From Azolla caroliniana (lineage: Eukaryota; Plantae; Polypodiophyta), in assembly GCA_043228905.1 (NCBI GenBank), contig JBHGNT010000015.1, forward strand, positions 14,756,001-14,820,000: a stretch of DNA of 64,000 nucleotides. Reading direction: 5' to 3'. The position numbers and the translations under genes were made by a program. Every line of letters begins with the position of its first letter. Within the stretch, counting starts at the first letter, position 1. The notes under the pieces are model-generated. The model was given only the letters and a program-made list of their open reading frames with translations. It searched no databases and had not been told where the DNA came from. Of the stretch, positions 15,897 through 41,109 are shown piece after piece.

Positions 15897-16181
15897 AATA
15901 CTAATGAATGAACAAAACAAACTCTAAACCTAATATCAAAGGTGCACGAATAAGTTATACCTACTTAATCACTCTTAATAATTTAATATGAAGATTAATA
16001 AAAGAGGCAAGAAAGTAGAAGACAAGCATGATCAATGGTATTAAATGTAGATTGTAGAAAGTTACAATCGACCCAAATCCGTAAGATCGAAGCTTAAGCT
16101 TTGGGTTGTACTTACAATAGTGTAGAGAATTGGTGCCGATTCTGTGCAATGGAAGAATGGTGTGTGTGTGTGTAGAGATAG

Positions 16182-16677
16182 TGTCACAGACACACCAACT
16201 ATAGACTCGGACCGAGCACGGATGATGGGGCTAATGAAGTGGAACTTAAGAAACTGGGAATGACACAAAAGCATGAAGACAAAGATAAAGATCAAGGAGA
16301 CAAGATGGGGCAAAACGAGAATACTATATTAATGTGTCAATGATTGGTGTTGAATCCCTTAAAAGGGACCAAGGAGATTACAAGTATTTATACAAGTTCT
16401 GAGATTGAATATCTCTAGAATATACTTGAGAAATATCTCTAGAATATACTCGACAAATATCTCTAGAATATACCCATCTAGATTATACCATAGAATATTT
16501 CTAGAATATACTAAAGACTAGAATATTCTGGAATGTATCCATCTATATGTTAGAATAACAATAATAGATTGTTATATACATGCTCATATCGAAATGGTTA
16601 GGCATGACGACTTGTAGATGTGAGGTTGTAGGTTCAATCCTCACTTACTATATATTTGATATCATTGTGTCGTGACA
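16182..16677 (-). mobile_element. Solo LTR of the Tcn1-like/TRIM family
   Basis: TGTCAC...GTGACA termini. Flanks GATAG/GAGAG (4/5). The reverse complement aligns with the LTRs at 19740 and 21362 (TCTAGAATAT repeats, TATAAATA..AAGGGATTCAACACC). Confidence 0.85.
16582..16645 (+). promoter_or_regulatory. tRNA-like A-box/B-box cassette at the outer end of the solo LTR
   Basis: GAAATGGTTA ... GGTTCAATCC, with 35 nt from the second G of TGG to the G of GTTC (tRNA G19-G53 spacing). No intact cloverleaf. Confidence 0.6.
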
Positions 16678-19600: not shown

Positions 19601-19747
19601 CACTGAATGTTGTCGTCTAGGCTGGTTCCCATACATCTGAATGCATTACATCCAAGATCCCTTTGCTTATGTTCCTCTCCTTTGGGAACGATTGACAATG
19701 TTGTTTGTCGAATGGACAAGCTTCACACACGCCTGCTCTTGTCACAT

Positions 19748-19815
19748 TCTAGACTCGAACCTCTGACTTTTAACACACACAATACATTGTGTTGTGTTAA
19801 CCATATGGAAACTCT
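19748..19815 (-). promoter_or_regulatory. tRNA-like A-box/B-box cassette at the 5' end of the TRIM LTR (decayed second copy at ~21370-21437)
   Basis: Minus strand ATATGGTTAA ... AGAGGTTCGAGTC, spacing 41 nt with an internal ACACAATGTATTGTGT hairpin. Confidence 0.55.
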
Positions 19816-20769
19816 TGTGAATTGTCCACATTCGATTGTGAACTTGCATATATTGTAGAGTCTAGTGTATAGTACATTCGAGAATATTCTAGTCGTTAGT
19901 ATATTCTAGAATTATTTTGTGGTATATTCTAAACGGGTATATTCTGGAGATTTTCTCGAGTATATTCTAGAGATATTCAATCTCGGAAATTGTATAAATA
20001 CTTGTAACATCCTTGGTCCCTTTGAAGGGATTCAACACCAATCATTGACACATCAATCTACTATTCTTGTTCCATTCCATCTTGTCTCGTTCTTCATCTT
20101 TGTCTTCATACTCTCCATAGCTTCCTAAGTTCATAGTCTCATCACTCACAGATTCTAGAGTTCCTAGCCTCATTACTTCTAGTTCTATGTTCGTCATCTG
20201 TGCTCCGTCCTAGTATGCGCTTGGTGTGTCCGTGACAATTTGAATCCCTTCCAACTAGGAGCACCACCCATTTTCCTCATCGCCTTTGCTTCTAGAGTTA
20301 CCATCAAACCCGTCCTTGCTTCCGAAGTTACCATCATCAACCTTGTCTTCGATGTCATCATTTTCAGCACCTCTTTGCCCAACCATCATCGCCATCAACA
20401 CTACTTGTCATCATTTTTAGGTATCATTTTGCATCATGGTTTTGGTGAGGAGTGCTTTTGATCGCTCACCTTCCCAGTTCCGGTGGGGGTCACAACCGCT
20501 CACTTTCCTGGTGGGGATTGGATCATTGCTCGTTTGCATTGCATTTTCGTTATAGTTCAAGTCTCGCGCCACTTTCTGTTGGCAAGGCGATCGCTCACCT
20601 TCTAGGTTCGGTGGGGGTCACAACCGCTCACTTTCCTGGTGAGAATCACGTGGGTTTCTCGTTAATGCTACCATTTGTGTTGTGTCTTGGGTCAACCTCG
20701 ACTATTTACCCTCTCATAATAGAAGAAGTTGAGTCGACTGCTTCACTTGCACTCCTTCGCTTGTTGTTG

Positions 20770-21230
20770 TTCCAGTTCTCGGTGAGGGCCGCATGATTGC
20801 TCACGTCCGTTTGTGTTCAGTTCTTGATGAGGGTCACATGGTCGCTCACGTCCATTCGTGTTCCAATTCTCAATGAGAGCTACATGGTCACTCACGCCCG
20901 TTCGTGTTCAATTCTCGATGAGGGCTGCATGGTCGCTCACGCCCGTTCGTGTTCAATTCTTGGTGAGGGCCGCATGGTCGCTCACGCTCGTTCGTGTTTT
21001 CAATGAGGACCGCACATGGTCACTCACGTTCCAGTCCCCGATGAGGGCCACACATGGTAGCTCACGTCCATTCGTGTTCTAGTTCTTGTTGAGGGCCGCA
21101 TGGTCTCTCACGCCCGTTGGTGTTCGTGTTCCAACTCTTGGCGAGGACCAACATGGTCTCTCATGCCCGATGGTGTTCGTGCTCCCCGTGAGGACCACAC
21201 ATGGTCGCTCATGCCCATTGGTGTTCAATA
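20770..21230. repeat. ~41-bp degenerate tandem repeat inside the TRIM
   Basis: Unit GTTCGTGTTCAATTCTCGATGAGGGCCGCATGGTCGCTCACGCCC, roughly 10 copies. Confidence 0.85.
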
Positions 21231-22103
21231 CCTCATCTTCTAGAAGGGTTACTCCTTGTCTAGGATTTACAAAATACTTTGGACGTGGTCTAAGATTTTC
21301 ATCAACATTATCCCCTTAAGCCAAGGACCGGTTTGGGAAGGCAGTGTAAGAAGGGGGATAATATCACATTCTATACGTGAACCTCTGACTTTTAACACAC
21401 ACAATACATTGTGTTCTGTTAACCATATGGAAACTCTTGTGAACTGTCCACGTTCGATTGTGAACTTGTATATATTGTAGAGTCTAGTGTATAATACATT
21501 CGAGAATATTCTAGTTGTTAGTATATTCTAGAATTATTCTGTGCTATATTCTAAATGAGTATATTCTAGAGATATTCAATCTCGGAAATTATATAAATAC
21601 TTGCAACATCCTTGGTCCCTTTCAGGGGATTCAACACCAGTCATTGACACATCAATCTAGTATTCTCGTTTCATACATATTGTCTCCTTCTTCATCTCTG
21701 TCTTCATGCTCTCATGTCGCTCACAACTTCTAGAGTTCCTAACCTCGTCACTTCTAGCTCCAATTTCGTGGCCCGTCACTCGTAGCCCCATCATCCGTGC
21801 TTCATCCCAATCCGCACTTGGTGTGCCCGTGACAACTCTCTCCTTTTCGGTAAAAGTCGGAAGTCCGAAGACGACTCCTTTCGATTGCATTCCTTTGAGC
21901 TTTTAGAGGTTAATGTGGCCAATTCACTTGTGCCACAGTTCTATGTCGGCGTCGACTCTCTGGCCCTTGGCATACATTGCCGAGTTCATCTCGGTGGGAG
22001 TCGAGGATGAACATCTTACCTTCTCTCTGACCCCGAGCGATGAGTCGACTTTCTTTTTCGATGAAGCGTCCTCCATCGTTGAAGCGGACTTGCATGCCTT
22101 GTT

Positions 22104-22683
22104 CGACTATCTGGCCAACTGAGACCAAGTTCTTTGTTATTGTAGTCCAACATGCAGAACGTTCTTGATGTAGGTTTGATTGCCTTCTTCCCCAAATGGG
22201 ACATTGTCGATATGCTGAATGGGGCGAATTGTGTCATCCCGAGTTTCCACATAGCTGGGTCGTTCGGGCTTCCGTAGCTCCATGAACCAATCCTTGTGGC
22301 CTCGTGGGATGTCATGTGGTTGGATGCACCCGAGTCGACGAACATACATCTTCTGGTTTGGAGGTGTTGGTCGGGTTGGAGGTTGTCATCGAGCGACTAT
22401 CTGGCCAACTGAGACCAAGTTCTTTGTTATTGTAGTCCAACATGCAGAACGTTCTTGATGTAGGTTTGATTGCCTTCTTCCCCAAATGGGACATTGCCGA
22501 TATGCTGAATGGGGCGAATTGTGTCATCCCGAGTTTCCACATAGTTGGGTCGTTCGGGCTTCCGTAGCTCCATGAACCAATCCTTGTGGCCTCGTGGGAT
22601 GTCATGTGGTTGGATGCACCCGAGTCGACGAACATACATCTTCTGGTTTGGAGGTGTTGGTCGGGTTGGAGGTTGTCATCGAG
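22104..22683. repeat. 290-bp near-identical tandem duplication of the Copia protease region
   Basis: CGACTATCTGGCCAACTGAGACC at 22104 and 22394. The ORF track shows duplicated peptides. Confidence 0.9.
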
Positions 22684-24007
22684 TTCACTCTGTGCCTCAT
22701 CACAAACATTCCGCCACGATTGTCGTAGTCGGAGTTGGAGGCATAGTTTGTATGTTGTCGGTTTGTGGAGGCCAACTCACTCTTCTTTTTGCAACACTCT
22801 ACCTCATAGTGACCGAATTTACCACAATATACGCACTGAGCGGGATTGTTTTGTCGGAGGTTGGGTTAGGTCTGATTGCTCCCCCTTCTTCTGGATGCCC
22901 CGCCTTGGAAGTTCGACACGTGTTGTCGATAATAGAAGTTATGTTCTCGAGGTTGCTCTTGGTTATGTCGGCCTTGGCTGAATCGGCCTCTTCTTCCCCG
23001 ACCTTGTCCTCTTCCTCCATCAGAGTTCGAATAGAGCAGTTGTCCTTCTTGCGCATTGCTTCTTGTTCAAACATGATTCTCCTCGACTAGTTGCATGGAC
23101 TAGAGATTGAAGAGGGAGGGATGATTCTCCCTCGCGAGGACTGCCAAATGAATGCTCCGAACTGAGGTGCTAAGCCTCCGAGGAAAATCTGCACCATTTC
23201 ATTGTCGTCAATGCTAACATTGATCGACCCAAGGGCATCACACAACTCCGTGATCTTCAAGGTGTAGTTGTCGATTGACATGTCCCTCTGTTGTATATCA
23301 TTCAACTCTTGACGGAGTTGAAGCTTTCTTGGGGTCGTGTTGCCACGAAAATATTCTTGAGGTTCCCCCATGCCTCCTTTGGCATTTTGGCCTCTCGGAT
23401 GTAACCGAGCATGTGATCATGGATGCATGATGCAAGGTAGTACAACACACGACTCGCCACTAGCTCCCAAGCTGGGTAGTCAGCATGTGTTGGGTTGGGT
23501 TGATTCTCGTTTGCCGACAAGGTATTGGTGCATCTTGTACTCCCAAGATGCAAAGTTGTTTCTGTTGAGCTTTTTGGTAGGAAGAGCGCTTCCCATCTGT
23601 GTGTTCATGTCGAACTTCTTCTTCTTGTCCTCTTGATACGAACTGTGCAAGTTGTTGTTACATCGATCAACCGGTTCTTTCCAAAAAACTGTATTAACAA
23701 GGAGACAAGAATGACCAACAACCTTACAAGGAGAAGGAGAAGGTGCTTATATAGTCACCTTCTCTCTAAGTTCTCTTACTAGTACCGCCTCTTGGGAAAG
23801 AGGTCGTGTCTTAACTACCTAAGGAATATGTGTCATAGAACATTAACTTCTCTGACATGCTAGTTACTATACAAGGAGGTGGGGTGTTCACACACTTGAG
23901 TATCCTAGAGTGTGTTCCCACTCACGGGAAGTTGAGTTTGATTCTCAACAAATAGAAAGTAAATTAAGGAAGTAATTGTAGCTCAACAAAGAGGTTCAAG
24001 TTGTAAC

Positions 24008-24398
24008 TAACAATCGGCAACGGTTCGGTTTGAACCGAACAGAACCATTAAACTGTGGTTTAACAGCTTAACGATTTCAACGTTTCAATTCAGTTTCAAC
24101 AGTCAAAAACCACGGTTTAAATAGTTAAACGGTTTTTTATTTTTTATTTTTTATTTTTAAAAAATTGTTTTTAAACAATCATTTCATTTTTAGACCTTAT
24201 TCTCACATTTTGGGAACATCTTAAAAATTTTAAAAATTTTAAAAAATTAAAAATTTGACCTATGTTGAAAACCGAAACCGAACCACGAAACTGTAGTTTT
24301 TATGGTTTAATGGTTTAACGGTTTGGTTCAGGTTTCAAAAAATTTAAACGGTTCGGTTTGGACCCTCTCAAACTGAACTAAATCGTTGCCGATTGTTA
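24008..24398. mobile_element. hAT-type MITE
   Basis: 15-bp perfect TIR TAACAATCGGCAACG...CGTTGCCGATTGTTA, perfect 8-bp TSD GTTGTAAC, AACCG/CGGTT subterminal repeats. Confidence 0.92.
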
Positions 24399-24999
24399 GT
24401 TGTAACCTAAGTTCTTATACATATGCTTTTTATAGATTTTGCAATGTCCTTTGGCATTCACACTAAGCTCGACATCTCTTTACTATATTGTCCTTGTCTT
24501 TGTTCCTTTGTATCATCCTTTAGTTCACCTCTTCCTTCATCTCCGACGAAAATCCTAAGTATAGAATTGTTTATTACTACATTCTTAGACATTTTGATTT
24601 AAGAGAGAAAATATTCTATATGCCTTATATTCCTATTGTGTACTTTGATAGGTAGGAGGGACACATGATTAAGTTAATTGGATGATTAATGGGAAAATTT
24701 TAAAACATAAAAAATATCCTTAAATGCCTTATATTCCTTTTGTGTAGTTAGCTAGGTAGGAGGGCCACATGATTAAAGTTAATTGAATGATTGATGGGAA
24801 ATAAATGGATGATCATATTTGGCAATCATTATATGGTTGCATATTCTTGTGCCTTTTATTCTAGACATGGTTGCAATTGAGATGTGGAATGATTTTCCAT
24901 TAGACATCAAAACATGAATACTCCTAGTTTATTGAAATTTTAGCTTGGTCTGTGGCAAAGGTATCATTTACATGGCACATTATGATGGTGGCATTGAGT

Positions 25000-27500
25000 G
25001 TTGGAGATGTTATCTCATCTTCTAGTCCATGCAAAATTGTTTCTTTGGTAGGTTATGATGGGTGGCTTTCCTTAAGGCAACGGATTTAAATTCTAACACT
25101 TTTTAAATATTATTGCACAACTCTAGGTGTCATTAACCAGGAAAATATTATCACCTTTTAAATGGGTTTTCACTTATGGAGCCAAAATGTTACCCTCCTT
25201 GTCAGTAAGGTGGTGTTTGAGTACAATTGTGATCCGAGTATTACAAATGAGTTCTTGTTTAGTGATCTCCACGAAGTTCAACAATTGAGTTGAAAGAAAA
25301 ATTGGTTTCATAGTCTTCACAATTAGCCTTTGTGGACATTTTATCAAATAGTCTTATAACATTATTTTGGGGTTTACTTTTACAATATGATCCTCACTAT
25401 TGTAATAGGGACAACAAGGATGTTCATATCCATATCTTGTTTTAATATACGAAGTACTTTTAGAAAAAAACTTGGGAATATGTGAAATATGAATACTTTA
25501 ATTTAAAGGTAAAATGGGATGAATATTGAATTTCGGGGAGACATGAACTCACATATTTTCCTATGGCCTATCACAACATGCTTACGAAAGTTGGAAGATA
25601 AGTTGCGTGGTACAAAGCTAGTGGATTAGTTCCAAAACCAATCATAACCCTACTTATATTTTCCCAATGTTGCTAGGAGTAGTGTACATATGTTCTTTTG
25701 TAGGCATGAGTAGAAGATGCACACTATTACAAGAAACAAAACATAACTCGCAATCCTAAAAGTAAAATTATATGCTCATTACAAAACTTTGAGACATACA
25801 TATGCACAAAGATTAGATACTCTTTTGGATGGTTGGAAAATGCGTACCAAATTCCAACAAATCAATGGGAAGGATTAAGATGCTAGTAATCATTCCAATA
25901 TATCATAGAAATGTATATAGGAATGACCAGGACGCCAATAATTGTTTAGAAATCATTAGGATGCTAAAAATATAAGGGAAAAACAAAGAATTGACGTTGC
26001 ACATGACAATTGGGTGGGTATAATATTTGGGTGTTTTCATGGGACATAATTAGCTTGATGATCACTTTGAATGCCCTTATTCATCTGCCAAACACATTCA
26101 ATATTATTGGTGATGGTACAAAATGTGAGCTCTTCCAACTTATTCAATTAACACCATTCCTTGTTAGATTATGGAGAATGGAATAGTGCATGCCAAATGT
26201 AATTTTCAGAACAACTATGCATATAAATCAACATGTGCATCACTAATGAGCGTAAAGGATCACTCATGAGCCAAGTGAAAAGGGAGCACCCATAATGGAG
26301 TCACAAATCCACCCATGCTCTCTGCAAAAACACCATATTCTCTCCCATGAATGATAAGATATGCATGTGTTTCTATACTTTGCATCCTCTAATTCAAAAT
26401 GGACAACCTATACACAACATTGTGGGGCTTTGTTTCCATTGACAAGTGGTTCATACTAAAAAAGCAAACAAGGCCCCACAAATGTTGTGGGGCTTTGTTT
26501 GGGTTGACAAGTGGTTCATACTAACAAAGTTACTTCGTAGAACAACATTCCTTTCTTGGGTTAACATTTAAGGAACCAAATGGAAGGCAAAACATCTTTA
26601 ATGGGGTTGGATTCATCTTACACTAGTGGATGACATCAAATTGTAACCATTTCAAGGGCAATAAACTTATTATTTTGGTAGATGACCTCTCATCTTGTTA
26701 TCTTCTTACACACACAATCCCTCCCTCTTACCTTCTAAAGGAAGTATATCCATGCCATAAACAACCTACATGTCAATACCTTGTTCCTAATTATGTTTAT
26801 ATTAATGTACTAATTGAGGGCTATGGATCCCTTTCCATATATTGGCCTCATTATAGGTAGGCCTACTACCTATTGGGATGCAACAAAAAATCATACAACT
26901 AGAGATATGGCAAACTTGCCTTGCATGACCCATGTTAGAATCATATGCCTTTATTAAAAGTTTTGACCCAACCAATTAACACATTGTGCTCAATATTGCA
27001 ATCTTCATGGTCAAATTACATTTATGTTTTTACACCAAGTTGATCGTCTTATTGGTATATGATGGAGATTATCAAAGCAATGAACATCTTGTGCTATGTT
27101 GATGTTGGGAAAGTGACTCTCATGAATCTCCACGTGCATCTTTATTCTATATCTTTCAAAACCAATGCTCGATCAAAACAAATAGTCATACTTGCAAGGT
27201 ATTTATTTCTCATATACATTTGAACTTAATAAGAGGAAGAGATGGTTGTGGCCAATAACTGCCTACCCACATAGGCTATGCTTTGGTGTTTATTGGTTTA
27301 CTCTAGTGTTAGTGCTAGCCTCAACCCTTTAACTAAGCATTAACCCTAATACTTTGTACATCTATCCATCATGGGGTGCAAACTAGTGGGGGAAGAATTA
27401 AACAAAAAGGCGCAAGATGTGACTATTCCTTTTATTGGACTTGCATGAATGGTTCTCAAGCATTGCTAATGAAGTTAAAACACATCCCATTCCCTACTAG
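25000..27500 (+). pseudogene. Possible highly decayed Helitron/Pif1-helicase remnant
   Basis: Only HFKGNKLIILVDDL (26650-26690) resembles the Pif1 motif PFGGK.IILVGD. Boundaries are approximate. Confidence 0.25.
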
Positions 27501-28270
27501 TCTATAATCACTTTTTCGAATAAAAGCATGTCAGCATGGCATGCCATTAATATGAGGGGATAACCTTGCATTTGATCGGGTAATGAGGATACAATGCTTA
27601 GCTCATGATATAGTGTCATATTGCGCCCATGGACAAAAACGAAACACAAGCACATCATTTGCATGCAAGTGGAATAATATACCATGAATAGAGACAATCG
27701 TTGAATTTGATGGTTGCTCTTATGTATGCAAATAGAGACCACTCATTGGATTGGTCTGTTGTTGTGGCCCCTTTATCTAGGAGTTGAATTGTGTTTTACG
27801 TGTGTGTGGATGAGCGAGAACAACAAATTACGAAACATATTCATGTTCGATGCTGAGGCAGGATTGCATTAAACATATGAGGAGATTAAGTGGTGACCTA
27901 CGAAGGTAGTTTTAGAAGTTGGAAACCAATGGAGTAATGGTCATAATAGGAGAGCTAAAATTCGGTCCATAGTCCATCATCAACATGGCTTGGTCTATGA
28001 TGCATGCGTAGAGTATTTGTAGAAGGGTGGTCCATGCAATGCAATTGGTCAAGTCAAGCCAGTTGAATGTTATGTAACCTCTGAGGTAGCAATATGAATC
28101 GCTTACACGGAGCCAAACAAATAAAAACATGCGAAATTTTTTCCACATTTTTAAAAACAACCGAAATCTTTGTAATAAAAGAAAAAACAAAGTGCAAAAA
28201 CTTAATATTCATCTCCCCCACCCCCGAAAAACACAGAAGAAAAAAATAGTCATTGCCGTGGGAAGGATTA

Positions 28271-28370
28271 NNNNNNNNNNNNNNNNNNNNNNNNNNNNNN
28301 NNNNNNNNNNNNNNNNNNNNNNNNNNNNNNNNNNNNNNNNNNNNNNNNNNNNNNNNNNNNNNNNNNNNNN
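28271..28370. other. Assembly gap (100 N)
   Basis: Run of N. Confidence 1.
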
Positions 28371-28379
28371 ATTTTAGTG

Positions 28380-28975
28380 ATTGGTAGGGCTTCGTACCCT
28401 AACATTTTCCCTAATGTTTGTGCATCTTCATCCGGAGATGCCCCTTCCTTGAGCCAGTAACTCGTACATTTAGGCGTCGAGCTTGACGCATTTTTCTTCC
28501 TCGAGGGTAGTGTTTACAATGTTTTCATCCTTTAGTTCTTTTTTATATTACGTTTTACTACATCAACCCACCCAGTTTTAGCTAATTCCATATCACTTTT
28601 AACCTCTTCTTTACCTTTTTTATCTCGTCCTTAATATCCTCTAGGGAAGATATTTCACCATCTTCCCTAGATATCTCGAGGTCCTTAACTTGTTTTCGGA
28701 GATTCACATTGTCTACCTTAAGTTTCGCTATTTCCGCAAAAAGTAGTTCTATTTCTTCCTTATCTTTTTGTTTTTCAACTTCAATTTCTTTCGCCCATTT
28801 TTCAAATTTTACTAACCGGTTAAGGACATCTAAAAATTCTTCCTTACTTATCATTTCGTCGTGTGTTTCCTTATGGTTTCGTCGAGAAGTCATGTTGTAA
28901 TTCAAAGAATAAACGAAAGAAAAAGTCAAAAAGGGCAGAAAAAAACTTAGCCGAGCATCGATGTCTTGCGCGCTA
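28380..28975 (-). pseudogene. LINE ORF1-like remnant (coiled coil followed by RRLNVRVTG)
   Basis: MTSRRNHKE...coiled coil (28582-28893). Downstream EEEKMRQARRLNVRVTG resembles the R..N....G.E motif of non-LTR ORF1. Truncated by the gap. Confidence 0.5.
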
Positions 28976-29034
28976 GGTACAAGTGTAGAAGCACATTTGT
29001 ACTCTCTCGTCACGACGCCGTAGGAGGTGTAGGT

Positions 29035-29470
29035 GATAGCGACGGTCGACACCGATGACAACAACTACCCACAACAGCGACGGGTGACGGCGATGGCCAA
29101 GAACCGACGACGACGGCGACGGCGGCAAACGCGACGGCGGCAGACGTTAAACGTCAGACGACGGCGGACGGCGACAGTCGGCAGCGGCAGCAGACGGCGG
29201 CTGACAGCGGTTGCAGACGACGGCGGCAGCAGACAGCAGTTGCAGACGACGGCGGCAGTCTGCAGACGTCAGCGAGCAGGCAACAGTCGGCAGACGGCAG
29301 ACGGCAGACGGCGGCAGCAGACGACGACGGCGACGACGGCAGCACGCGACGGCGGCGTCAGCAGCAGCAGCGACAACAGGCGGCGTCGTCGGCAGGGTTG
29401 GGTTTAGGCAGAGAGAGAGAAAAAAAAAGCAGGCGAGGGGGCGTCAAATCTGACGGCCAGATGACGGCGA
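29035..29470. repeat. GC-rich GACGGC/CGGCAG low-complexity tract
   Basis: Dense GACGGCG/CAGACGG units followed by poly-G at 29543-29564. Confidence 0.8.
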
Positions 29471-29948
29471 GAAAACCCTAAAGAAGAAAGGAAGAAACGG
29501 AAGACGTGAAGAACGAACGGGAGAGAGAGAGAGACAGAGCCAGGGGGGGGGGGGGGGGGGGGGGCTTAAGAGGAGCAGGGGAGGGCCATCTCAGCCATCC
29601 GTTTTCGAGATCGACGGCCACGATCGCTTCAGCGACCCCTCTCGTTCTCCTTTGTGTTCTTTTGTGTGTGGGTTTATATTATTTCTTCTCCGTTTTTGAT
29701 TGATTTTCTTTTTCCTTTATTTAATTAATTAATTAATTTTTACTTTCTCTGCTTCTTCTTCTTCTTCTTCCGGAAGAAGGGTTTTTCAGAGCCCTCCCCC
29801 CCCTCTTTCTTCTCTGTTTTCCTTTTCTTGCCTACAAGCAGGCTGTCAAAAAGAACAGAGGATCTCTCTCTCTCTCTCTCTTCTTGTTAATTGTGAAAGA
29901 CCTGATCAGATTTCACCGCTCCATTGATCAAAAAATCTTTATGGGTAT

Positions 29949-29985
<37 letters not shown>

Positions 29986-30806
29986 CCCTCCCTCCCCCTG
30001 TTTCTGTCTCTATGTGTGTGTGTGTGTGTTTTCAGAAACAAATTCCCTTGTCTAAATGAATTAAATTTTTTTTTTTCCTAGCTCCTTCTCTTTTGTGTTT
30101 TTTTTTTTTTTTGAGCAAAGAATATTTGATTTTTTTTTATTTGCTCACAAATTCAACGGGATTACTCTGTTTTGTGTTGCTGCAAAATATGCCCACCCTT
30201 TTCTCTTGCTCGTTTGCTCTACCAAGGGGCCATATATTAAGAATATATGGTCTCTGCCAGAATTCAGAACTCGGAGGGCAATTTGTGCACATCATTCAAC
30301 TTGTCCCGAATTCCACCCGACCAAATCTTTGCGTAGGAAACCTGCTCCAACTTAGCCATTCCAAGTGAATCTTCGCGTAGGAGTTTGAACTGGTGTTTCA
30401 CTTCTCAGCATAATGTTTCGGACCCGAATTCGAGTCCTGAGCAAAAAATTCATGTAATGTTTGGCCAGGGTTGGAGCTTGCTGATGTGCCATATTCCCAA
30501 AGTAGTAATTATTTGCTTTATGTTCTTTTGTGCTTGTATGGCTTTTGTGAATGTGTGTGTGCATATGTATACATAGCAATTGAAGACTTGAACCCTCTCG
30601 AGAGATGCTTCATTGATCATTCTCTCTCGTGTTTTATGTCACAAATGTACAAGAAACAATTTCGTCGTTTTATTGGCAGGGAATTCAATTTAATTTTCTG
30701 GTTGTGAAGCTTTCCATTTATAGAAAAGAAATGATGGGTTTATATGCATTGGTGCCTGGTGGAATCGAATTTTCCGTGATTGGATGATCCTTGAAAGTGG
30801 TTAGAA

Positions 30807-33800
30807 ATGCCAGTAAACATGACAACTGAAAGCCCGATGAGGATGATGGGTGCAAGTGGTGGAGGCATGCCCATGAGTGAAAATAGTATAAGGGCAATCC
30901 CTATGGGTGAAAATAGCATGGCTCCGATTCCTCCTTCGGCGGCGGATGGTGTGGCTCAGGAGCTTGGGATGCTCTTGAAAAGCCACTCTCGGCTCGATAG
31001 TTTACTAAATCGGAAGGACATGGTTCCGCATCGAAGTGGAAGTGCCCCTCCAAGTGTGGAAGGCTCAATCGCATCAATGGGAGGCCTTCTGCTTCCTGGT
31101 ATGGAAAGCTCAGGAATTCACATCATTGAGAGCTCCGCACATGGGCAAATGAATGAGAATGTGGTTGATTCGGAACAAGAGCTTCGATCTGATCCGGCTT
31201 ACTTGGCCTACTACTATTCTCACATCAACTTGAACCCACGGCTTCCGCCACCGATAATTTCCCGGGATAATTACGTCCTTGCACAGCGTCTGGCAAGTGG
31301 TAATCTTCCGGATAAGAAAAATCTTAGGTCTTTTGACGATAGTAATAAAAGGTCTTTGTTTTCGACACAACTTGTGCTTCCGACCCACAATGAAGTTGAA
31401 TCATCTGAGGATGAAAAGTCTCCAGAGGATGGCTTGTTGAGGCAAGTATCGGGTAACCGGGTGGAAAGCAAAGCTGAGGCTGGGTTATCGGCCACTCATA
31501 TGCATGGATTTGGTGCCCGTCCGAAAAGCTTAGTAGACCTCATTCAGGTAAGAAAGATTTATCGTAATTAACTAGTTATATTGAGGAGGTTGAAAGAAAT
31601 ATGATAAATATCTCCCATATGGATTTTCTTTTGCACAGCAAGATTTCCCGAGGACGCCTTCTCCAGTGTATAGTTTACCTCGACCATCTAGTAGGGTTGC
31701 AAATGAGGAGGGGAAGACAGGGGGAGATTCTCATCTGCGAGAGTCTTCCGTGACGGTTGCTGCAATCACTGAGCTAGATGCACCTTCGTTACATGTCCCT
31801 TCACGCTCGGCCACACCGACTCTTAAACCCCCTATGAGTGCTATACCAATGGGAAATGCTGCTATAGCATCTGTAAGTGGGAATTTGGGACCCATTGCCA
31901 GGATTCCAACACCAGATCCTTTGAGTGGGAATGAAGCATTAATAGAAGAGATCTCAAGTTTGAGGGGGGGATCAAGCACATCTGATTTGACAGCTTCTTT
32001 ACAAGATCTAACCTTGTCGTCTGTAGCTGGTAGGCATGGGGGTGTTCCTACAGACCATAAGCGTCTTGCGGGTCTATCATTAGATCATCATCAACAAGAG
32101 TTGCAAGAGCAACCGTTGTTGCAACAACAAGTTTATCGCCATAACCAGCATGGGCAAAGGTCTCAAGCTGGGTCACAAATTGGGCAAGCGAAGAACCTTC
32201 ATGCCCATCAGCAACAAGGTTTAGGGCAAAATTTCATGACTTCAAGTAAGCATGGGGTTGCATTATCACAATCTTTAAATGCTCCTATCCAATCTTCGAA
32301 TAACATGTTTGCTGCAGCCATGTCATATATGGCCAGCGGGAATCCTTATTATCCAACGACAAACATGTATGCGTCCCAATATAGTTTAGGTGGATACCCT
32401 CTGAATAATCCTCTCCTTCCGGGAGGAGTAATGCCAAATTACACTAACAATGCAAGCTACGAGAATGTCGCGACTGGAATGGGTGGCCGGTCTGCCTCGT
32501 CCGGCCTCTCTAATATGGACATGCAACAGCTGTATAAGTATTCGAGCCAAAACCAAATTGGGCTTCACTCTCGGATACCTGATCCCTTGTATCTTCATTA
32601 CTTACAGCAACGGACCACCGATGATATTCATGCAAATGACCCTTTGCTTAGAGGAGCATATGGGCAGTTGAATCCTCTGGAGGTACAGAAAAGCCAGTTA
32701 AGTTCAATGCTTGGCTACTCAGCACAGGATCATCACAAGTCCCAGTTTGCCAGGGGTAGCGCACTCAGTCTTCAAATGGGAGGCCAAGCTGGCTCAGTTA
32801 GTCCTGGTTACTATGGGAGCCCACCTGGGCTAGGCTTTGTCATGCCATATGCCAATTCGCCCCTCACAAGTCCAGTGCTTCCAGGGTCCCCTGTTCTTCC
32901 TGGGGTCTTATCTCTGCGACATAGTGGAAGGTCCTCTGCTGGATGGCAAGGAGTGAGAGCCAGTGAGACGGGTGAAGATATGAGAGCTTCCTCATTGTTG
33001 GATGAGCTGAAGAATAGCAAATCTCGGAGGTTTGAACTCCAAGAAATCGTTGGTCATGTGGTGGAATTCAGGTAATTCTTCTACCCTGTAATTTAGCTAT
33101 CTAAATTGAAATCCTGCATCTTGTCTTATCTATGATAAAATGGTACAGTGCGGATCAACATGGTAGCCGGTTCATTCAGCAAAAGTTGGAGATGGCATCT
33201 GATGAGGAGAAAGGCATGGTCTTCCAAGAAGTTTTACCTCATGCACTTACTCTCATGACTGATGTGTTTGGGAATTATGTCATTCAAAAGGTAATGTCCT
33301 GCATATATCTCGACTATAAAGCTGGAAAAGATTTAGTAACTTTGTTTAGGTCTACAAGTTCAGACTGAAGTAATGCGCATGGATTGATTGTCATATAAAA
33401 CACCATGATTGTGTATTTTAAAAACTAATTCAAGGAGGACGACAAAACTAATATTAAACGAATGATTTTATATGGTTATGGTGACCACATGAAATTAATG
33501 GATTGGGAGCATCATGACTATAGTTATCTATCTATTGGAATATTGGTAACTGTTCTGTGGTTTTGTTTATCTTTCAGTTCTTTGAGCATGGAAGTATGGA
33601 GCAAAGGGCAGAGCTTGCGAACAAGCTGGTTGGCCATGTCTTAAATTTGAGCCTTCAAATGTATGGCTGCCGTGTGATTCAAAAGGTGCATCTTAGCATA
33701 GCGTTTTTTTCAAAACAACTCACTTTAAGACTAGGTCATAGATTCAAATCCTTAATTTTACATGCCTTTGTTACACACCATATATCACTTCCCTTTAACT

Positions 33801-35362
33801 ACATGCCACATGGGAATGTTGAATTAATGACCTCATAATCTCCTAAACTGTTGACACAGCCATTTCTTTTATAATATTTCTCTCTATCTTATACAGTAAT
33901 GCTTGTTGTTTGGCTGTTAATAGGCATTAGAAGTTGTGGATCGTGAACAACAAATTAGTCTGGTTTCAGAGCTGGATGGGTATGTCATGCATTGTGTTCG
34001 TGATCAGAATGGCAACCATGTAATCCAAAAATGTATTGAGTGCATTCCGCCGGAACATATACAATTTATAATTTCAGCTTTCCGTGGTCAGGTGGTGACT
34101 CTTTCCACGCATCCTTATGGATGCCGTGTGATTCAGGTAGATGATGACAATATTATTCCCTGACTTTTGGGATATTTACCAGAAACATCTCTGAAGTTTT
34201 GAAGCATTACCTACCAGAATGATCCTCTGGTAAATATCCCAAAACTTAGGGGGTATTCTTCTCTGTTACTTTTTATCATTCAGTACAAGTTGTATTAGAT
34301 GTAAAAACCATTATTATCTGTTGTAATTTTCTTTGTTTTCTGCAGCGTGTTCTCGAGCATTGTACAATTGAGCAGAAAGATGATGGGATAATGGATGACA
34401 TTCTACGAGCTACTTGTGATTTGGCACAGGATCAATATGGCAATTATGTTGTACAGGTTAGTGGTGGTTCAATTTTCCTATAAAACCTGTATTTTCTTTG
34501 CTATTTTCTAATGTTGTTCCAATTGGAGCTGTTTCTAAATGTTGGTTTTTCTTTGGAAAATTTCGACATGATAATATAATAGCATGTGCTAGAGCACGGA
34601 AAACCACATGAAAAGGGTGAGATAATGACGAAACTAGCTGGCCAGATTGTACAGATGAGTCAGCACAAATTTGCGTCAAATGTAGTTGAGAAGTGTTTGG
34701 AGTTTGGGGGTCCGGTGGAACGCAAGATTTTGATCAGCGAAATGCTTGGACACACAGATGAGAACGAGCCACTACAGGTACTCTATTCTCGGCGTGAATA
34801 AGGTGGTCTAGATGGTGGGTATATTTGTATGCATGTATTATATTGCGATGTATATATTCAATTGTAATGTATAACACATTGTGATGTATATGTATGGAAT
34901 GCATCTGTATCATGGGTTTGCTGATTGATTGCAGGCCATGATGAAAGATCAATATGCGAACTATGTGGTTCAGAAAGTTCTGGAAACATGTGATGATCAG
35001 GAGCGTGAGCTCTTGCTCTCTCGCATTCGTGTCCATCTCCATGCCTTGAAGAAGTATACGTATGGCAAACATATCGTTGCACGTGTGGAGAAGCTCCTGG
35101 CTGCTGGGGGTAAAAACGAAAATTATTATATTAAAAGTCGAAAAAATAAATATAAATACAAGTTATAATTGCATAAATAAATAGTAAACATAGTAAATAA
35201 ATAATACGTGCTACATTAAAAAATAAATGCATAAAATAAAAAACAAAATGTAAAATAATAAATAAAGAAGAAAATAATAAATGAGTATTCATTGTGTTTC
35301 TAAATTTTTTTTTGCTTGTGTCAGAACGACGAAGTGCCCAAGTGTCATCATTATCGGCTTGA
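30807..35362 (+). CDS. Pumilio/PUF RNA-binding protein (APUM1-6 class, NABP region plus 8 Puf repeats), 9 coding exons
   Basis: GT-AG exons: 30807-31547, 31639-33071, 33149-33290, 33578-33685, 33924-34136, 34346-34456, 34583-34777, 34935-35109, 35325-35362. Motifs [43 protein letters not shown]. Puf repeats GSRFIQQ, GNYVIQK, GCRVIQK, GNHVIQK, GCRVIQ, GNYVVQ, ASNVVEK, ANYVVQK, then [14 protein letters not shown]. Confidence 0.96.
34154..34255. repeat. Fold-back (Stowaway-like mini-MITE) in Pumilio intron 5
   Basis: TTTTGGGATATTTACCAGA (34165-34183) is the exact reverse complement of 34226-34244. Outer ends TATTCCCT...AGGGGGTA. Confidence 0.65.
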
Positions 35363-37466
35363 TCCATTTCGAACAAAACTGTAATACCTTATATGACCAC
35401 CTTTTATAACTGATTTGTGCATAATACAAATTTGAAAAGTAGGACGGAAAAGAAATGCAGATTGTATGGAGAAGTGAGGTTTGAACTACAATCAGCAATC
35501 CCGACTATCTAACATCAACTAAAAGACTAGGAAAAGTGTGTAGAGAGAAAGTAACGAGTGCTCGTGTTGTAATGTTGTATCAGAGTGTATTATCTTTTGT
35601 TTTTAAGAAAGGGTAGTAGGCTTGAGCGCAAAATGAAAGAATGTATTCTCTTTTGTTGTAACTGAATCCAGGAATCTCTTTTCTATTTCGAGTTCAATTT
35701 ATTTCTACCCCACTCTTATAACCTCCCAGATGTGCTTTGGTTATTATTATTATCATGCAATTCCCCTTTGTTCTGTACAAAATCAAATTGATTGATGACT
35801 TGTATATAGATTGCTCATGTAACATATCAAATATCCTTGCGATTTGCCATGGCTCTAGGAAAAATTAGTGCTATTGTGTTATGTTTTATTGCTGTGATAA
35901 TTTGCAGTTATTGATTAATCTAACATTCTGGTATCTCCTGCGGTAGACCAACCAGAAGTCCATCTCATGGAAGTTTTTTAATGATATGTAAAGGTTAGTT
36001 AGGACAAGATGAGTCATGTGCTTGGAGGGGCAAACATCTTGGAAGAGGCTACCTCTTTGATTCCCCTGGTAATGTACTAATTAGTAGGGCAGAAAATCTC
36101 ATGCAAGTGTTTAATAATATTCAAAGGTTAGGGCAAATGGGTCATATGCTTGGAGGAGCAAATATCTTGAAAGAGGCTTAACCCTTCTCTGCCTCATTGA
36201 TTCTCTAGGTGATGTACTAATTAGTAGGTCAGAAAGTCCTGTACACCAGTTTATAATTATATGTACAGATTGAGCAGTTATAATGGTCCACTCATGGCAT
36301 AGTATTTATGTAATTATCTTGCCTATTCATCATCTTTTGATCTCTTTTGTGGGTGAGGGGTAGGTTATCTATTAGGTATATATAGGTGGAAATAGAGAAA
36401 CATCTTGTGGGATTGAGTTCAATTACCCCACTTAGTGTTTTGAATGTCATATTGAGAGCTAATGAAACCGTTACGTCATTTGCATTTACGATGCTTAAAT
36501 GCTTGTGGGATAGACATTTTCAGTCGCTATTATCATGATATTTGTGCCAAATTTGATCCATTGCCTATAATGTGCTGATAAAGCATTTGAATTTGATAGA
36601 TGTAATCATATCTCAAGAATGAGTGTATGTTATTTGAGCGCTAGTAAATAAGTATGGTGCACTTGTGTAATTGAATTACTTGAAGACATTTTACATAAAT
36701 TCTAGATTCCGTTGTCCATATTAATCATTCTCAAAGTGTTTTGTTATTTTTCCTATAAAAGATGAACTCAACAAGCTTGGCAAATCACGATTAAAAATAC
36801 AAGTCATTTTGAGTTATCTATGTTGAAAAAGCCCTAGATTACCTAAATACTAATGACAATGATGTTAATGCATGAGGTGCTTTTACAACTTGTAAAAATG
36901 TTTGAGAAAGTTTTGGAAGTATGCATCGTTAGCTATTGTGTATGGAATATGTTGTGGTAAGGGCACATGATTTTTGACATTGGTTTGCATGGAGTGAGGC
37001 AATGTTACATAATATACTAACCCCATCTTGATGTCATCATAGTTGTGTATAGTTTGGATTGTTGCTTTACCTTTTCTTGGTTCATGGTGATTCCTTTGCA
37101 AATTTCTAGTGATCTATGATTGTATGCTCACCCATCGTGTTAAGATGACAATTGAGTCCCCATGCCTTTGAAGATCGACAAAGCCTTGGTCAAAAGTGAT
37201 TTTCCGCAACCATAGGTTGTGATTATTTGAAACTAAGGCAATGCTTGATTGACGTGGGAAACACACTAGAGAGTTGTAATAAAATACTAGTAGTAGCGAT
37301 AGAAACAAAGGACTGTGCATTGTAAGCATATACATACTCAACACACATTGTGGGCCTCCTATTGTCTTCTTCATCTTCAATCTCTTCAATCAGGTGAGTT
37401 CTAGTTTTCTCTTTCATGGATTAAAAAAAAAATCTTGGCTCAATACCACATAAAAAATATTGGATA

Positions 37467-37555
37467 TGTTGAGAATCAAACTTAACCTAGGGTGTGAACA
37501 CACCTTAAGAATAGTCAAGTGTGTTAACACACACCACACGGACGTTCAACAATCA
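37467..37555 (+). mobile_element. Copia LTR 5' fragment related to the 16714-23950 element
   Basis: TGTTGAGAATCAAACT...CAAGTGTGT matches the start of that LTR. It is interrupted by the Tcn1-like LTR at 37556. Confidence 0.6.
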
Positions 37556-37557
37556 TG

Positions 37558-37620
37558 TCATGATTCAAACTCTTGACCTATTGTATTGTAATCAAATGTT
37601 TTAACCAACACATCCAATAC
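37558..37620 (-). promoter_or_regulatory. tRNA-like A-box/B-box cassette at the LTR 5' end
   Basis: Minus strand TGGATGTGTTGGTTAA ... GAGTTTGAATC (C>T in the B box), 35-nt spacing. Confidence 0.55.
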
Positions 37621-37954
37621 ATGTTCATGTTACTTTTTAGTAGATTATTGTAGATTATCTATTCTACATGTAGGAGATTTTGAAAGCTTCTAGAAAGCTC
37701 CAGAAGCTAGAAGCTTCTAGAAAGCTCCAGAAGTTGGAACATTCCAAAAGGTTGTGCATGAAAATGAGTCTTTGCATGGAACTACATTTAGAGCCCACAA
37801 ACATGTATAAATATAGGGGTTCACCTTGGCCCTAGTCAAGGTGAACAACACCAGTTACGGAAGCATAATATCAGTTCTTATTCTCTTGTCTATTTTCTCT
37901 CTCTCTTTCTTGTTCCCTTGCTTACGCTTAGTGCTCGTTCCGGTAAACTCTCGA

Positions 37955-39433
37955 TGACCCAGGCAACCTAAGATAGGCTAACGAGAGGGTATGCATCCCT
38001 CTCACTCTTAGAGAGACAATGCCATCAGGCATACTTTCAAGAGCCACAGACTAAGGGATGGCTCTTCGACTCATTAGTGACCCCTTCCCTCATGTATGCA
38101 TCAGTAGTATGGGCTCCAGGTCTACCATCTTTCATGTGGACGCAATTAGAGAGACCTTTGGTGATGATGTTATCACGTCAACTCCGAAGCAAATCGACAA
38201 TACCACATGACATTATTAGAGCAGAGTTCAGTTTGGCCCCGATGTTAGTTTTTGCACTTTTCCAAGTGGTAGTTTTTATTCATAAGATACATAGCCAGCC
38301 ACAAGATAGGATATCCCATCGAGCTTTTGAGGCATCCGATCCCTATATGCGTCCGGAGACACTAGCTCTTGGTATAGCACTGTAGTGAGTTGGTTACTTG
38401 CAAATGGTATAGACATTAATAACCTACCTCCCCTTAAGTACAATCGTGGGACTGATCAAACTTTAATCTCTTATGAAGTTTGTAAGAAAGTAATACACCA
38501 AGAAATATGGCAAATTTACATCTTGAGAGCCACTCCCATCTAAAATGTTGTACTATAAGGAACACTTCTTGCACTTCTCTAAGTTAGGTTTTATTACATG
38601 ACCAAAATATCTGGATACATTCTTATCGAATGCACTAAGGGTGGCCATTGGACAACTTAGGGTATCATCTCACCAACTTGAGATTGAGAATGGTCGTGCT
38701 AATAGAGTTCCTAGAGAGGAAAGGCTATGTAGGCTATGTCACATAGAGATAGAGGATGAGTATCACTTTACATGCAAGTGTCCGACTTATACCGAGATAA
38801 GGGCAAAATACCAAGACATACTAGGACCCTCTCCCACTCTCTCTAGACTATTAGATACCCCGGATATAAAGAGATTAGGTAGGTATATCTTAGAGCTAAA
38901 ACAACATAGGGAGAATAAATTACAAAGTGTTAACCATAACCCTTTTAGTATTCACCAACATGTAACTAATGTAATTTTTCAGGAACAAGGGGAGACGATG
39001 AATGTGGACACACCTACACCACTCGGCCTCTCTCTTGATGAAGCAAAAATGCAAAGAACAACCAAACACCCTCGGATATTAGGCTTCAAAGTTCCTCGAT
39101 GTGGAGTAGAAACGATTAAGAAGATAAGGGAACGTGAGCTACACTGCCTAGAAGTTATGGTTGGGGTACCTTTTACATTAGGACCACAGACCACATCCAC
39201 ATCGAAACCCTTTGACCTCCTGCTTCTTTTTGAGAGACTTGGTTGGAAATGAAACTCGGCCTAGTATAAAGCCATTTCTTTATGGAACATGTTTTTTTAC
39301 TAGAACTGTTTAGCTTAAACTCTATTTTATTTTATTTTTACTTTCGATGAATGGGTAAACACCCCATTTTGGTTGTAAAACAATTGTCTCATGGGCCAAT
39401 TTTGGTCTTAGAAGACGTTAATATATCTTTCTT

Positions 39434-39478
<45 letters not shown>
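37955..39478 (+). mobile_element. 5'-truncated non-L1 LINE (RTEX/L2/CR1-group-like) with C-terminal CCHC finger and (CT)n tail
   Basis: MYASVVW...IIRAEF RT thumb. LRVSSHQLEIENGR...RLCRLCHIEIEDEYHFTCKCPTY. Ends GACGTTAATATATCT(CT)n. Left boundary approximate. Confidence 0.75.
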
Positions 39479-39482
<4 letters not shown>

Positions 39483-41109
39483 ATTTAACCTCTTCTACTC
39501 GTTTGTGACAGTTTGTTCACCTTCCATCTTCTTACTACCATGTTCGACTCTATCAACAACCAAAACAAATAATGGCAGCCTTGGAACAACTTCAACTAGA
39601 AAATGAAATCCTTCATAAATCTTTACGAGAGCTTCAAAATGGCAGCACCTCCAACAACCCCCCACCCGCTGAGCGTCACCCTTTGTCAGCACCTAGCCCA
39701 ACCCCTTCCTCGTCCCATCCATATGTCCTAGAACCTAGTGTCAGCCTACTCGACAAATTCATCGGCTTGACGGCGCATCTTTGCGGCTTCATTAATCAAA
39801 TTCAGCTTATCATCTGTTTACAGCCCCAACGTTATGCTAGCGATTTCACTCGGGTCAGCCTCGTTGGCACCCTTCTCTTCGGATTGACACAAGCGTGGTT
39901 TGCGCCATTGATCGAAACCTCATCCCCACTGTTAGACAACTTTCTTGCCTTCCTTGCGGAGCTTGAAGCAACGTTCGGAGAGACAAACCGATGTCGAACG
40001 ACACTCACGAAGCTCTATTCCTTGCAACAAGCTCTTGTCTAGCATCAGTCTGTACTTCAGAGTTTCGTTAGATCGCATCTGATGTCAGTTGGGATGACCA
40101 ACTTGAAGCCTTATGCGATCACTTTCGTCGAGGTCTTTGAAATGATGTCAAGACTCTTCTCTTAAACTTTCCGGAGCCCACATCGTTGTTTCAAGTAATC
40201 TCCCAAGCTGTTCAATGTGCTAATCGTCTTTTTGAGCTTTGACAGGAGGAATGTGGGACTCGAGGATTTCAGTCTTCCTCTCACAACGCTCCCATCACAA
40301 GGCCATATGTATTAGTTTCGCCAACCAAGCCATGGTTGGCATCCATCAATAATACTCATACCCAGATGGAGGTCGACCCCCATACTCCAATGGATATTGA
40401 CCATGCTCGGTTCCAACCATTAACTGATGACCAATGACAACATCAACGTGACAATGGCCTCTACCTCTATTGTGGTACCCCCCCGGCCATGTCATTCGCC
40501 ACTGCCCGGTGCGAGGCCCTCGATATCAATCCCACCGTGCACGACTTGCGAAGGTTTCTCGACAACAGGAAAACAACCAAGCCTGGCTGTAGTAGGAGTC
40601 GTGCCGCTGGACATTTCTTGTTACCCTACTTCTCCATGCTCCTACAATTCAGTTACACCAACAAGAGGTTTTACAAATTGGAAGTAAGTCTTTGTTTTGG
40701 GTCTACTTCAATACAATCCCATGCCTTGCTCAATTCTGGTGCATCTACCTGTTTCATCGATATCTCATTCGTTCAAGCACATAATATCCCCACCGTCCGC
40801 ATAATACAACCCATATCCGTTGAAGCTATCGACGAACGGGTTCTCTCTTCGGGGGCGGTTACCGAAGCCATTGTCCCATTGGTGCTTCAAGTTGGGCCTC
40901 ACCAGGAGGTATTAACGTTTTACCTCATTGCAACCCCTCGACATCTGATTGTTTTAGGGCTATCCTGGTTGGAAACACACAATCCGAATGTGGATTGGTG
41001 CAACCATTCCATCACTTTTTCACAAACACCAACGCAGGTCACGAATCCTTGCCCCATTACTTGTGTGGGGGCTGCTTTTAGCTTGGTTGCACATTCTTCC
41101 GATTTCAAC

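What the first reader, a model, noticed from the sequence alone, without database searches (positions are those of the whole stretch)
19740..39523. Co-varying self-priming PBS in two related LTR elements (no tRNA primer)
Seen: in the TRIM, PBS TTGAATCCCTTC (20240-20251) is the exact reverse complement of GAAGGGATTCAA (20024-20035), about 30 nt after TATAAATA. In the 37556 element, PBS TTGTTCACCTT (39513-39523) is the exact reverse complement of AAGGTGAACAA (37838-37848), also about 30 nt after TATAAATA. The two pairs differ in sequence but each pairs perfectly, which indicates compensatory change. Established: S. pombe Tf1 primes reverse transcription with the first 11 nt of its own transcript. 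Inference: these plant elements use the same mechanism.
Basis: partly seen in the sequence, partly recalled or inferred. Interest (0 to 1): 0.75.

Follow-up and report, generated by a model that had tools for sequence, protein, structure and literature searches.

The report
Self-priming moss-type retrotransposons, already predicted
These jumping genes have a primer site that matches the predicted first 11 letters of their own RNA and changes in step with it across relatives, so they likely start copying themselves without a host tRNA, a route proven in yeast and already predicted in print for this plant group.

Summary
Both complementary pairs are exact. They belong to damaged Ty3/gypsy chromoviruses of the fungal/vertebrate (Tf1/sushi, Tcn1-type) branch; the 'TRIM' is a 2.1-kb deletion derivative. 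In 33 distinct elements (31 relatives, 2 from the window) the 11 bases starting 32 nt after TATA are the exact complement of the 11 bases 2 nt past the LTR in 28, in four sequence types, about four independent switches. A second helix flanks the duplex (97% paired); Tf1's third duplex was not found. Start site and cleavage are untested. Self-priming is already predicted for 83% of 1,500 plant Tcn1 elements (Neumann 2019), and this scan reported it before in other moss DNA. Corrections: TRIM primer is 11 nt from 20025; the 37556 LTR is split by a 1.5-kb insertion. New detail: a U3 segment between TATA and primer forms a co-varying hairpin that would mask the primer's 3'-LTR copy; not found in my searches.

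The parts
19740..20237 (+). 5' LTR of the 2.1-kb non-autonomous element ('TRIM'), TG...CA
   Evidence: 90% identical to the 3' LTR over aligned columns; flanks GCTCT / ACTCT (4 of 5)
19993..20000 (+). TATA box
20025..20035 (+). predicted 11-nt self-primer (predicted RNA 5' end)
20041..20056 (+). 5' arm of second helix (R region)
   Evidence: fold; column counts
20221..20236 (+). 3' arm of second helix (end of U5)
20240..20250 (+). PBS, 2 nt after the LTR end, complement of 20025-20035
21223..21359 (+). remnant of the pol C-terminus (chromodomain end) of the same lineage
   Evidence: tblastn to P0058/P0059, E 2e-7 to 4e-7 within the 1.1-kb internal region
21348..21361 (+). polypurine tract
   Evidence: sequence
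21362..21834 (+). 3' LTR of the small element
16175..16540 (-). LTR copy of the same family without PBS (solo LTR, 5' boundary not fixed); same primer at 16350-16360
37556..39510 (+). 5' LTR of the second element, split by an insertion
   Evidence: aligns in two pieces to L037, L049, L074
37806..37813 (+). TATA box
37819..37830 (+). U3 arm complementary to 37835-37846 (hairpin over the primer)
   Evidence: 12-bp stem, -20.7 kcal/mol predicted; columns
37838..37848 (+). predicted 11-nt self-primer
37854..37861 (+). 5' arm of second helix; pairs with 39502-39509
37929..39429 (+). about 1.5-kb insertion in the LTR; looks like a LINE 3' fragment (label recalled from a C-terminal Cys/His motif; Pfam gave no family)
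39513..39523 (+). PBS, 2 nt after the LTR end
39572..41100 (+). broken gag and protease; element truncated after protease
   Evidence: DUF4939 E 5e-10, RVP_2 E 9e-8; about 82% DNA identity to L001/L006/L007
44194..44594 (-). 3' LTR of a third, more distant element; predicted primer 44376-44366 (TATA 34 nt before it)
44602..47960 (-). broken pol (protease remnant, RT, RNase H, integrase, chromodomain); 5' part cut off by a copia-type insertion, so no PBS in the window
   Evidence: (RT_RNaseH E 2e-33, Chromo E 2e-15)

Best explanation
These are damaged Tf1/sushi-branch (Tcn1-type) chromoviruses and a non-autonomous derivative whose PBS is the exact complement of an 11-nt LTR segment 32 nt after TATA, which is predicted to be the RNA 5' end and likely serves, after cleavage, as the primer of reverse transcription. 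Shown: the complementarity, its fixed register, matched changes in four types, a second helix joining R to the end of U5, and the protein kinship. Inferred from Tf1: transcription starts at the A of a conserved C/A step; bases 1-11 pair with the PBS; base 12 (C in 33 of 33) is unpaired; RNase H cuts between 11 and 12; RT extends into U5. Inferred: copying of the primer into the plus strand keeps PBS and primer in step; the small element borrows enzymes from an autonomous partner and needs only its own pair. Inferred, weaker: the U3 arm folds over the primer wherever U3 is transcribed (3' end of the genomic RNA, read-through RNA) and keeps that copy off the PBS.
For: Exact pairs. 28 of 33 distinct elements perfect, 4 with one mismatch, 1 with two; shuffled pairing mean 15.1, 0 of 100,000 shuffles reach 28. 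Four types: 19 A, 3 B, 5 C, 1 TRIM perfect pairs; 3 changes on the gag tree plus the TRIM, whose LTR is 68-80% like those of type-A elements L017/L018/L026. Pairing ends sharply at both sides of the 11 columns; 99% of cells pair against 35-55% when slid. Second helix 97% against 25-51%, with G-U and one two-sided column. Predicted pairing probability 0.9 or more in 27 of 32 RNAs begun at the primer. No TGG after the LTR. RT groups with frog, fish, fungal and protist elements apart from seed-plant ones, SH-aLRT 100. 44194 family: majority line of 21 loose ends agrees with the predicted PBS at 9 of 11 letters in the predicted register, and one contig joins primer and LTR end on opposite strands with 2 letters between. 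[quoted passage not shown]
Against: No RNA start site, no cleavage product, no activity test. Third duplex of the Tf1 'pretzel' not found: only 1 of 32 elements beats all 200 shuffles; the TRIM has -14.2 kcal/mol but 16 of 200 shuffles reach it. Whole-region fold of the TRIM is modest, z -1.8, 9 of 200 shuffles as good. The 33 elements are relatives from similar assemblies, so only about four switches are independent. 28 of 65 loci lacked one anchor (20 no LTR-end motif, 8 no promoter anchor) and 14 of 79 were left out beforehand. The anchors fixed the first two PBS letters as TT. Novikova 2010 saw no self-priming in Selaginella SM-Tcn1 (section 6). No complete tRNA set of the host was tested. 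Host clade and Tcn1 reference sequences were not tested directly.
Confidence: 0.88

Rival explanations
1. A host tRNA, half-tRNA or other small RNA primes at these sites and the match to the LTR is secondary.
For: Half-tRNA priming exists in plant copia lineages, and 5% of Tcn1 elements have a tRNA-Met PBS. No host tRNA set was available; the window has no tRNA gene.
Against: No TGG within 8 nt of the LTR end in 33 of 33. Four PBS types among close relatives would each need another host RNA, yet each equals the complement of its own LTR segment.
Confidence: 0.04
2. The inverted repeats are a structural or mutational by-product (template switching between nearby inverted repeats keeps them matched) with no role in priming.
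For: The primer also sits in a short-loop hairpin with U3, the kind of layout in which templated changes are plausible (own knowledge). The opposite-strand joint may be a library artefact.
Against: The PBS partner lies 87-214 nt away in relatives, always 2 nt after the LTR, and there is no other primer site; G-U pairs favour the sense RNA strand.
Confidence: 0.05
3. Self-priming occurs, but the RNA starts further upstream and the primer is cut out or refolded from the U3 hairpin rather than being the first 11 bases.
For: The U3 arm is conserved and co-varies; Tf2 can use start sites in U3 (PMC5341516 passages). In 18 of 32 elements primer:PBS pairing stays at 0.5 or more even with the arm attached.
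Against: TATA spacing of 32 nt and a C/A step at the primer's first base in 32 of 33 fit a start there; with the arm attached, predicted primer:PBS pairing drops below 0.5 in 14 of 32.
Confidence: 0.08

Closest known systems
Plant Tcn1-clade chromoviruses (REXdb; Neumann et al. 2019, PMC6317226: passages and supplementary file 5 read; per-element file 1 and the FASTA too large to read)
   Same: Ty3/gypsy order, chromodomain with aromatic cage residues, overlapping gag and pol frames, kinship with fungal and vertebrate elements, PBS complementary to the own 5' LTR (their test: at least 10 bp starting 0-5 bp after the LTR).
   Different: The passages and table I saw give no covariation across families, no fixed TATA register, no flanking helix, no U3 hairpin and no non-autonomous member. 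The unread file 1 may list the same PBS types.
Tf1/Tf2 of Schizosaccharomyces pombe, Tj1, Tosmo1-3, Tcry1 (PMC7175516 passages; PMC4600332 passages; bioRxiv 2022.12.06.519325 passages and first half of section 28)
   Same: 11-nt primer at the predicted RNA start, PBS just after the LTR, a second duplex between PBS-adjacent and LTR sequence.
   Different: Tf1 is proven by experiment and needs three duplexes; only two were found here. Gag-pol here is in overlapping frames, not one ORF or a stop codon.
SM-Tcn1 of Selaginella (Novikova et al. 2010, PMC2864245 section 6)
   Same: Same clade description, two ORFs, LTRs of about 440 bp.
   Different: The authors found neither tRNA priming nor self-priming there.
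TRIMs (definition in PMC6934838 passages)
   Same: Non-autonomous, two terminal repeats, PBS and PPT.
   Different: 2.1 kb with 0.5-kb LTRs, keeps a pol remnant, PBS not complementary to a tRNA 3' end.

Membership tests
Tcn1 clade (plant Tf1/sushi chromoviruses) | gag-protease-RT-RNase H-integrase order with C-terminal chromodomain | tested here: met
   Relatives of the 37556 element (L016, L017, L043, L044) carry gag, protease, RT motifs and a chromodomain in this order; P0045 Pfam list; 44194 element. The 37556 copy itself ends after protease.
Tcn1 clade (plant Tf1/sushi chromoviruses) | group I chromodomain with aromatic cage (Y, W, Y) | tested here: met
   Chromo E 1.6e-15; the three aromatic residues read from the translations; positions as in PMC3350952 passages.
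Tcn1 clade (plant Tf1/sushi chromoviruses) | RT clusters with fungal/vertebrate elements, apart from seed-plant chromoviruses | tested here: met
   41-row tree, branch support SH-aLRT 100, midpoint root, long branches flagged; nearest Atlas clusters mostly Basidiomycota.
Tcn1 clade (plant Tf1/sushi chromoviruses) | clustering with named Tcn1 references (Tcn1, PpatensLTR2, SM-Tcn1) | not testable with these tools
   No named reference sequence was returned by any search.
Tcn1 clade (plant Tf1/sushi chromoviruses) | overlapping gag and pol frames | tested here: met
   13 of 13 long loci examined show a gag frame overlapping a pol frame.
Tcn1 clade (plant Tf1/sushi chromoviruses) | 5-bp target site duplication | tested here: inconclusive
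   Small element: 4 of 5 letters match; the other two elements lack one end.
Tcn1 clade (plant Tf1/sushi chromoviruses) | host is a moss or clubmoss | tested here: inconclusive
   Plant genes in the window (labels recalled); the homologue search for the host gene returned nothing at the threshold I set. Moss is an inference.
Tf1-type self-priming | PBS complementary to an LTR segment, no tRNA 3'-end match | tested here: met
Tf1-type self-priming | primer is the RNA 5' end | not testable with these tools
   Only contigs were served; they cannot show starts. Position fits TATA+32 and a C/A step.
Tf1-type self-priming | second duplex (R with end of U5) | tested here: met
   97% of 264 cells pair, 25-51% when slid.
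Tf1-type self-priming | third duplex (sequence after the PBS with LTR sequence) | tested here: not met
   1 of 32 beats all 200 shuffles; TRIM 16 of 200. Only the 16 nt after the PBS were tested.
Tf1-type self-priming | RNase H cleavage after base 11 and extension by RT | not testable with these tools
   One opposite-strand joint in one contig fits but cannot be told from an artefact.
TRIM | under 1 kb, terminal repeats of 100-250 bp, tRNA PBS | tested here: not met
   2.1 kb, LTRs 498 and 473 bp; definition.

The most novel reading that the evidence does not exclude
These elements carry a built-in 'anti-primer': a U3 segment between TATA and the start site that co-varies with the self-primer and locks it in a hairpin whenever U3 is on the same RNA, so that only the true 5' end, never the 3'-LTR copy or a read-through RNA, can prime. 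This would be an unreported fourth element of the self-priming fold that replaces Tf1's third duplex as the selector.
Probability: 0.3. Interest if true: 0.55.

Novelty: new member of a known kind. Interest (0 to 1): 0.28.

Why it matters
The core claim is already in print as a prediction for this clade, so it adds confirmation rather than discovery: matched changes across about four independent switches, a fixed start register and a conserved flanking helix are stronger sequence evidence than the single-element complementarity test used before, and they give exact positions for a first bench test in a plant. A non-autonomous derivative with its own primer type suggests the helper enzymes read the fold and not the sequence. 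The U3 hairpin, if functional, would answer how a self-priming element keeps the second copy of its primer (in the 3' LTR) from competing.

Tried and rejected
No own genome was held, so no genome-wide test. Viral contigs gave no relative. No RNA holder listed for the small element; all runs were contigs, so start sites could not be seen. The opposite-strand joint was listed in 1 of 4 runs (one contig, depth 3.5, run only guessed to be RNA); its absence from X1, X3 and X16 is not proof of absence. Loose ends of X16 (4 records) did not show the predicted PBS clearly. No PBS for the 44194 element in the window or in the 79 loci. Third duplex not supported. U3 hairpin weak in the small element (20 of 200 shuffles as low) and in L061 (14 of 200). 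Host-gene search returned nothing at E 1e-250. Pfam gave no family for the insertion in the 37556 LTR. Original Tf1 papers were not held; Tf1 facts come from passages of later papers. Searches without a hit for a self-priming non-autonomous moss element: (0 papers). Searches in which I saw no description of a U3 hairpin over the self-primer (listings, and passages where cited); subscription papers such as Butler 2001 and Lin and Levin 1997 were not searchable and may describe it. Rejected: 12-nt primer and start at 20024; the label TRIM in the strict sense; the claim that matched change proves compensatory selection.
Full report
Observation. Both pairs are exact reverse complements at the stated coordinates. 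An exact 11-nt complement somewhere in the 480 nt upstream occurs at 72 of 63,279 window positions, and here two elements show it in the same two registers, so it is not chance. The 11-mer of the small element also occurs at two unrelated places, so position, not the word, carries the weight.

Anatomy. The small element runs 19740-21834 with LTRs of 498 and 473 bp, 90% identical over aligned columns, flanks matching at 4 of 5 letters, a polypurine tract, and a remnant of the pol C-terminus of the same lineage. It is a deletion derivative and larger than a TRIM as defined in PMC6934838 (passages). A further LTR copy of its family lies on the minus strand near 16175-16540. The second element has its 5' LTR split by about 1.5 kb of foreign DNA, then PBS, broken gag and protease, and ends. 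The third element (minus strand) keeps pol with a chromodomain and its 3' LTR, 44194-44594; its 5' part is cut off, so it has no PBS in the window.

Relatives. No own genome was held. A gag alignment fetched 79 metagenome loci. I left out 14 by hand because gag lay at the contig start or lacked its N-terminus; of the other 65, 37 had both an LTR-end anchor and a TATA/R anchor, 20 lacked the first and 8 the second. The anchors did not use complementarity, except that they required TT as the first two PBS letters. With the two window elements and after removing duplicates, 33 remained. The primer-position 11-mer equals the complement of the PBS in 28 of 33; four have one mismatch and one has two; shuffling partners gives 15.1 on average and never 28 in 100,000 trials. 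An anchor-free search for the longest complement upstream of gag had already returned the same pair at TATA+32 in many loci. Four types occur; the gag tree needs three changes among three of them, and the small element adds a fourth, with an LTR 68-80% like that of type-A elements. Because the loci are kin, about four independent switches is the honest count.

Fold. Pairing stops at both edges of the 11 columns; 99% of cells pair against 35-55% when slid. The letter before the primer is C in 32 of 33 and the first letter A in 33 of 33, which moves the small element's predicted start to 20025. Base 12 is C in all and unpaired. An 8-bp second helix joins R (bases 17-24) to the end of U5: 97% paired against 25-51% slid, with G-U pairs and one column with a two-sided change. 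RNAs begun at the primer pair it with the PBS at 0.9 or more in 27 of 32; even the split 37556 copy folds this way in its minimum-energy structure. The third duplex that Tf1 needs (bioRxiv 2022.12.06.519325 passages) was not found, and the small element's overall fold is only modestly better than shuffles (z -1.8).

In run X1, the majority line of 21 loose ends before 44194 (agreement 0.47) matches the complement of the predicted PBS at 9 of 11 letters with a 2-letter spacer. One contig of run X15 (guessed to be RNA) joins the primer and the LTR end on opposite strands with 2 letters between, which requires that PBS and is what self-primed extension or a template-switch artefact would give. 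A G>A variant at 44373 holds 38-48% of depth in three DNA runs, so the family has more than one primer form. This is partial support.

U3 hairpin. Between TATA and primer lies a segment complementary to the primer. Its predicted hairpin is reached by at most 3 of 200 shuffles in 31 of 33 elements; the small element and L061 are the exceptions. Each type's U3 folds best with its own primer (mean kcal/mol: A -14.7 against -10.8 or weaker; B -19.5 against -17.6; C -15.8 against -14.3; small element ties). In the 27 type-A and type-B elements 92% of cells pair against 20-46% slid, with two-sided changes at the primer's variable base and at a U3-only column. In a model of the RNA 3' end the primer is held by U3 at 0.6 or more in 31 of 32; with the arm attached at the 5' end, primer:PBS pairing drops below 0.5 in 14 of 32. 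Reverse transcription would copy primer into PBS but not into U3, so this match needs selection or local templated mutation. A masking role is my inference.

Kinship. Relatives have overlapping gag and pol frames, a CCHC motif and a chromodomain with the aromatic residues. Their RT and that of the 44194 element group with frog, fish, fungal and protist elements apart from seed-plant ones. Named Tcn1 references were not available, and the host is inferred to be a moss, not tested (one search gave nothing).

What is known. Neumann et al. 2019 (PMC6317226; passages; supplementary file 5) predict self-priming for 83% of 1,500 Tcn1 elements of moss and clubmoss and for 89% of TAR copia elements; their per-element file and FASTA could not be read and may hold the same PBS types. 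Tf1's 11-base primer and cleavage are described in PMC7175516 (passages). Novikova et al. 2010 found no self-priming in SM-Tcn1 (section 6). This scan's earlier notes report the same reading in other genomes, including a small non-autonomous element; I take them as repeats, not evidence.

Verdict. Real, well supported by sequence, unproven at the bench, and a new member of a kind already predicted in print. Interest 0.28; the U3 anti-primer is the one lead worth a test.

Noticed in passing
window 37819-37846; L001-L074 equivalents: U3 arm forming a co-varying hairpin over the self-primer; weak in the small element and in the 44194 copy.
   Followed up: yes
window 44194 and 44366 (run X15, record 9): One contig joins the primer and the LTR end on opposite strands with two letters between; self-primed product or library artefact.
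   Followed up: partly
window 44373: Primer variant G>A at 38-48% of depth in three DNA runs; would need a matching PBS form or a wobble pair.
   Followed up: no
window 20744-21229: Degenerate tandem array of about 45-nt units inside the small element's internal region.
   Followed up: no
window 37929-39429: LINE-like 3' fragment inserted in the TC-rich part of the 5' LTR, with about 38 nt of LTR sequence aligning on both sides; a similar fragment by eye near 41130-41700.
   Followed up: partly
L059, L060, L063: Relatives that keep primer and a 9-nt PBS match but have lost the usual LTR-end motif and most of U5.
   Followed up: no
L014, L017/L018: Contigs in which pol is followed by one LTR, PBS and gag again: tandem copies sharing an LTR or collapsed assemblies.
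   Followed up: no
L012, L025: Gag relatives with a long repetitive leader between LTR and gag; L012 has yet another primer-position word, its PBS was not located.
   Followed up: no
window 57282-59606 (+): Intronless open frame that reads like phenylalanine ammonia-lyase with a C-terminal extension (label recalled, not tested).
   Followed up: no
window 30795-33075 (+): Exons that read like a Pumilio-family RNA-binding protein (label recalled, not tested).
   Followed up: no
window 16714-16986 and 23685-23950; 47960-50500: A pair of other LTR-like repeats 7 kb apart that encloses the small element, and a copia-type insertion that cuts the third element.
   Followed up: no
window 28271-28370: Run of 100 N (assembly gap), outside both elements.
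   Followed up: no
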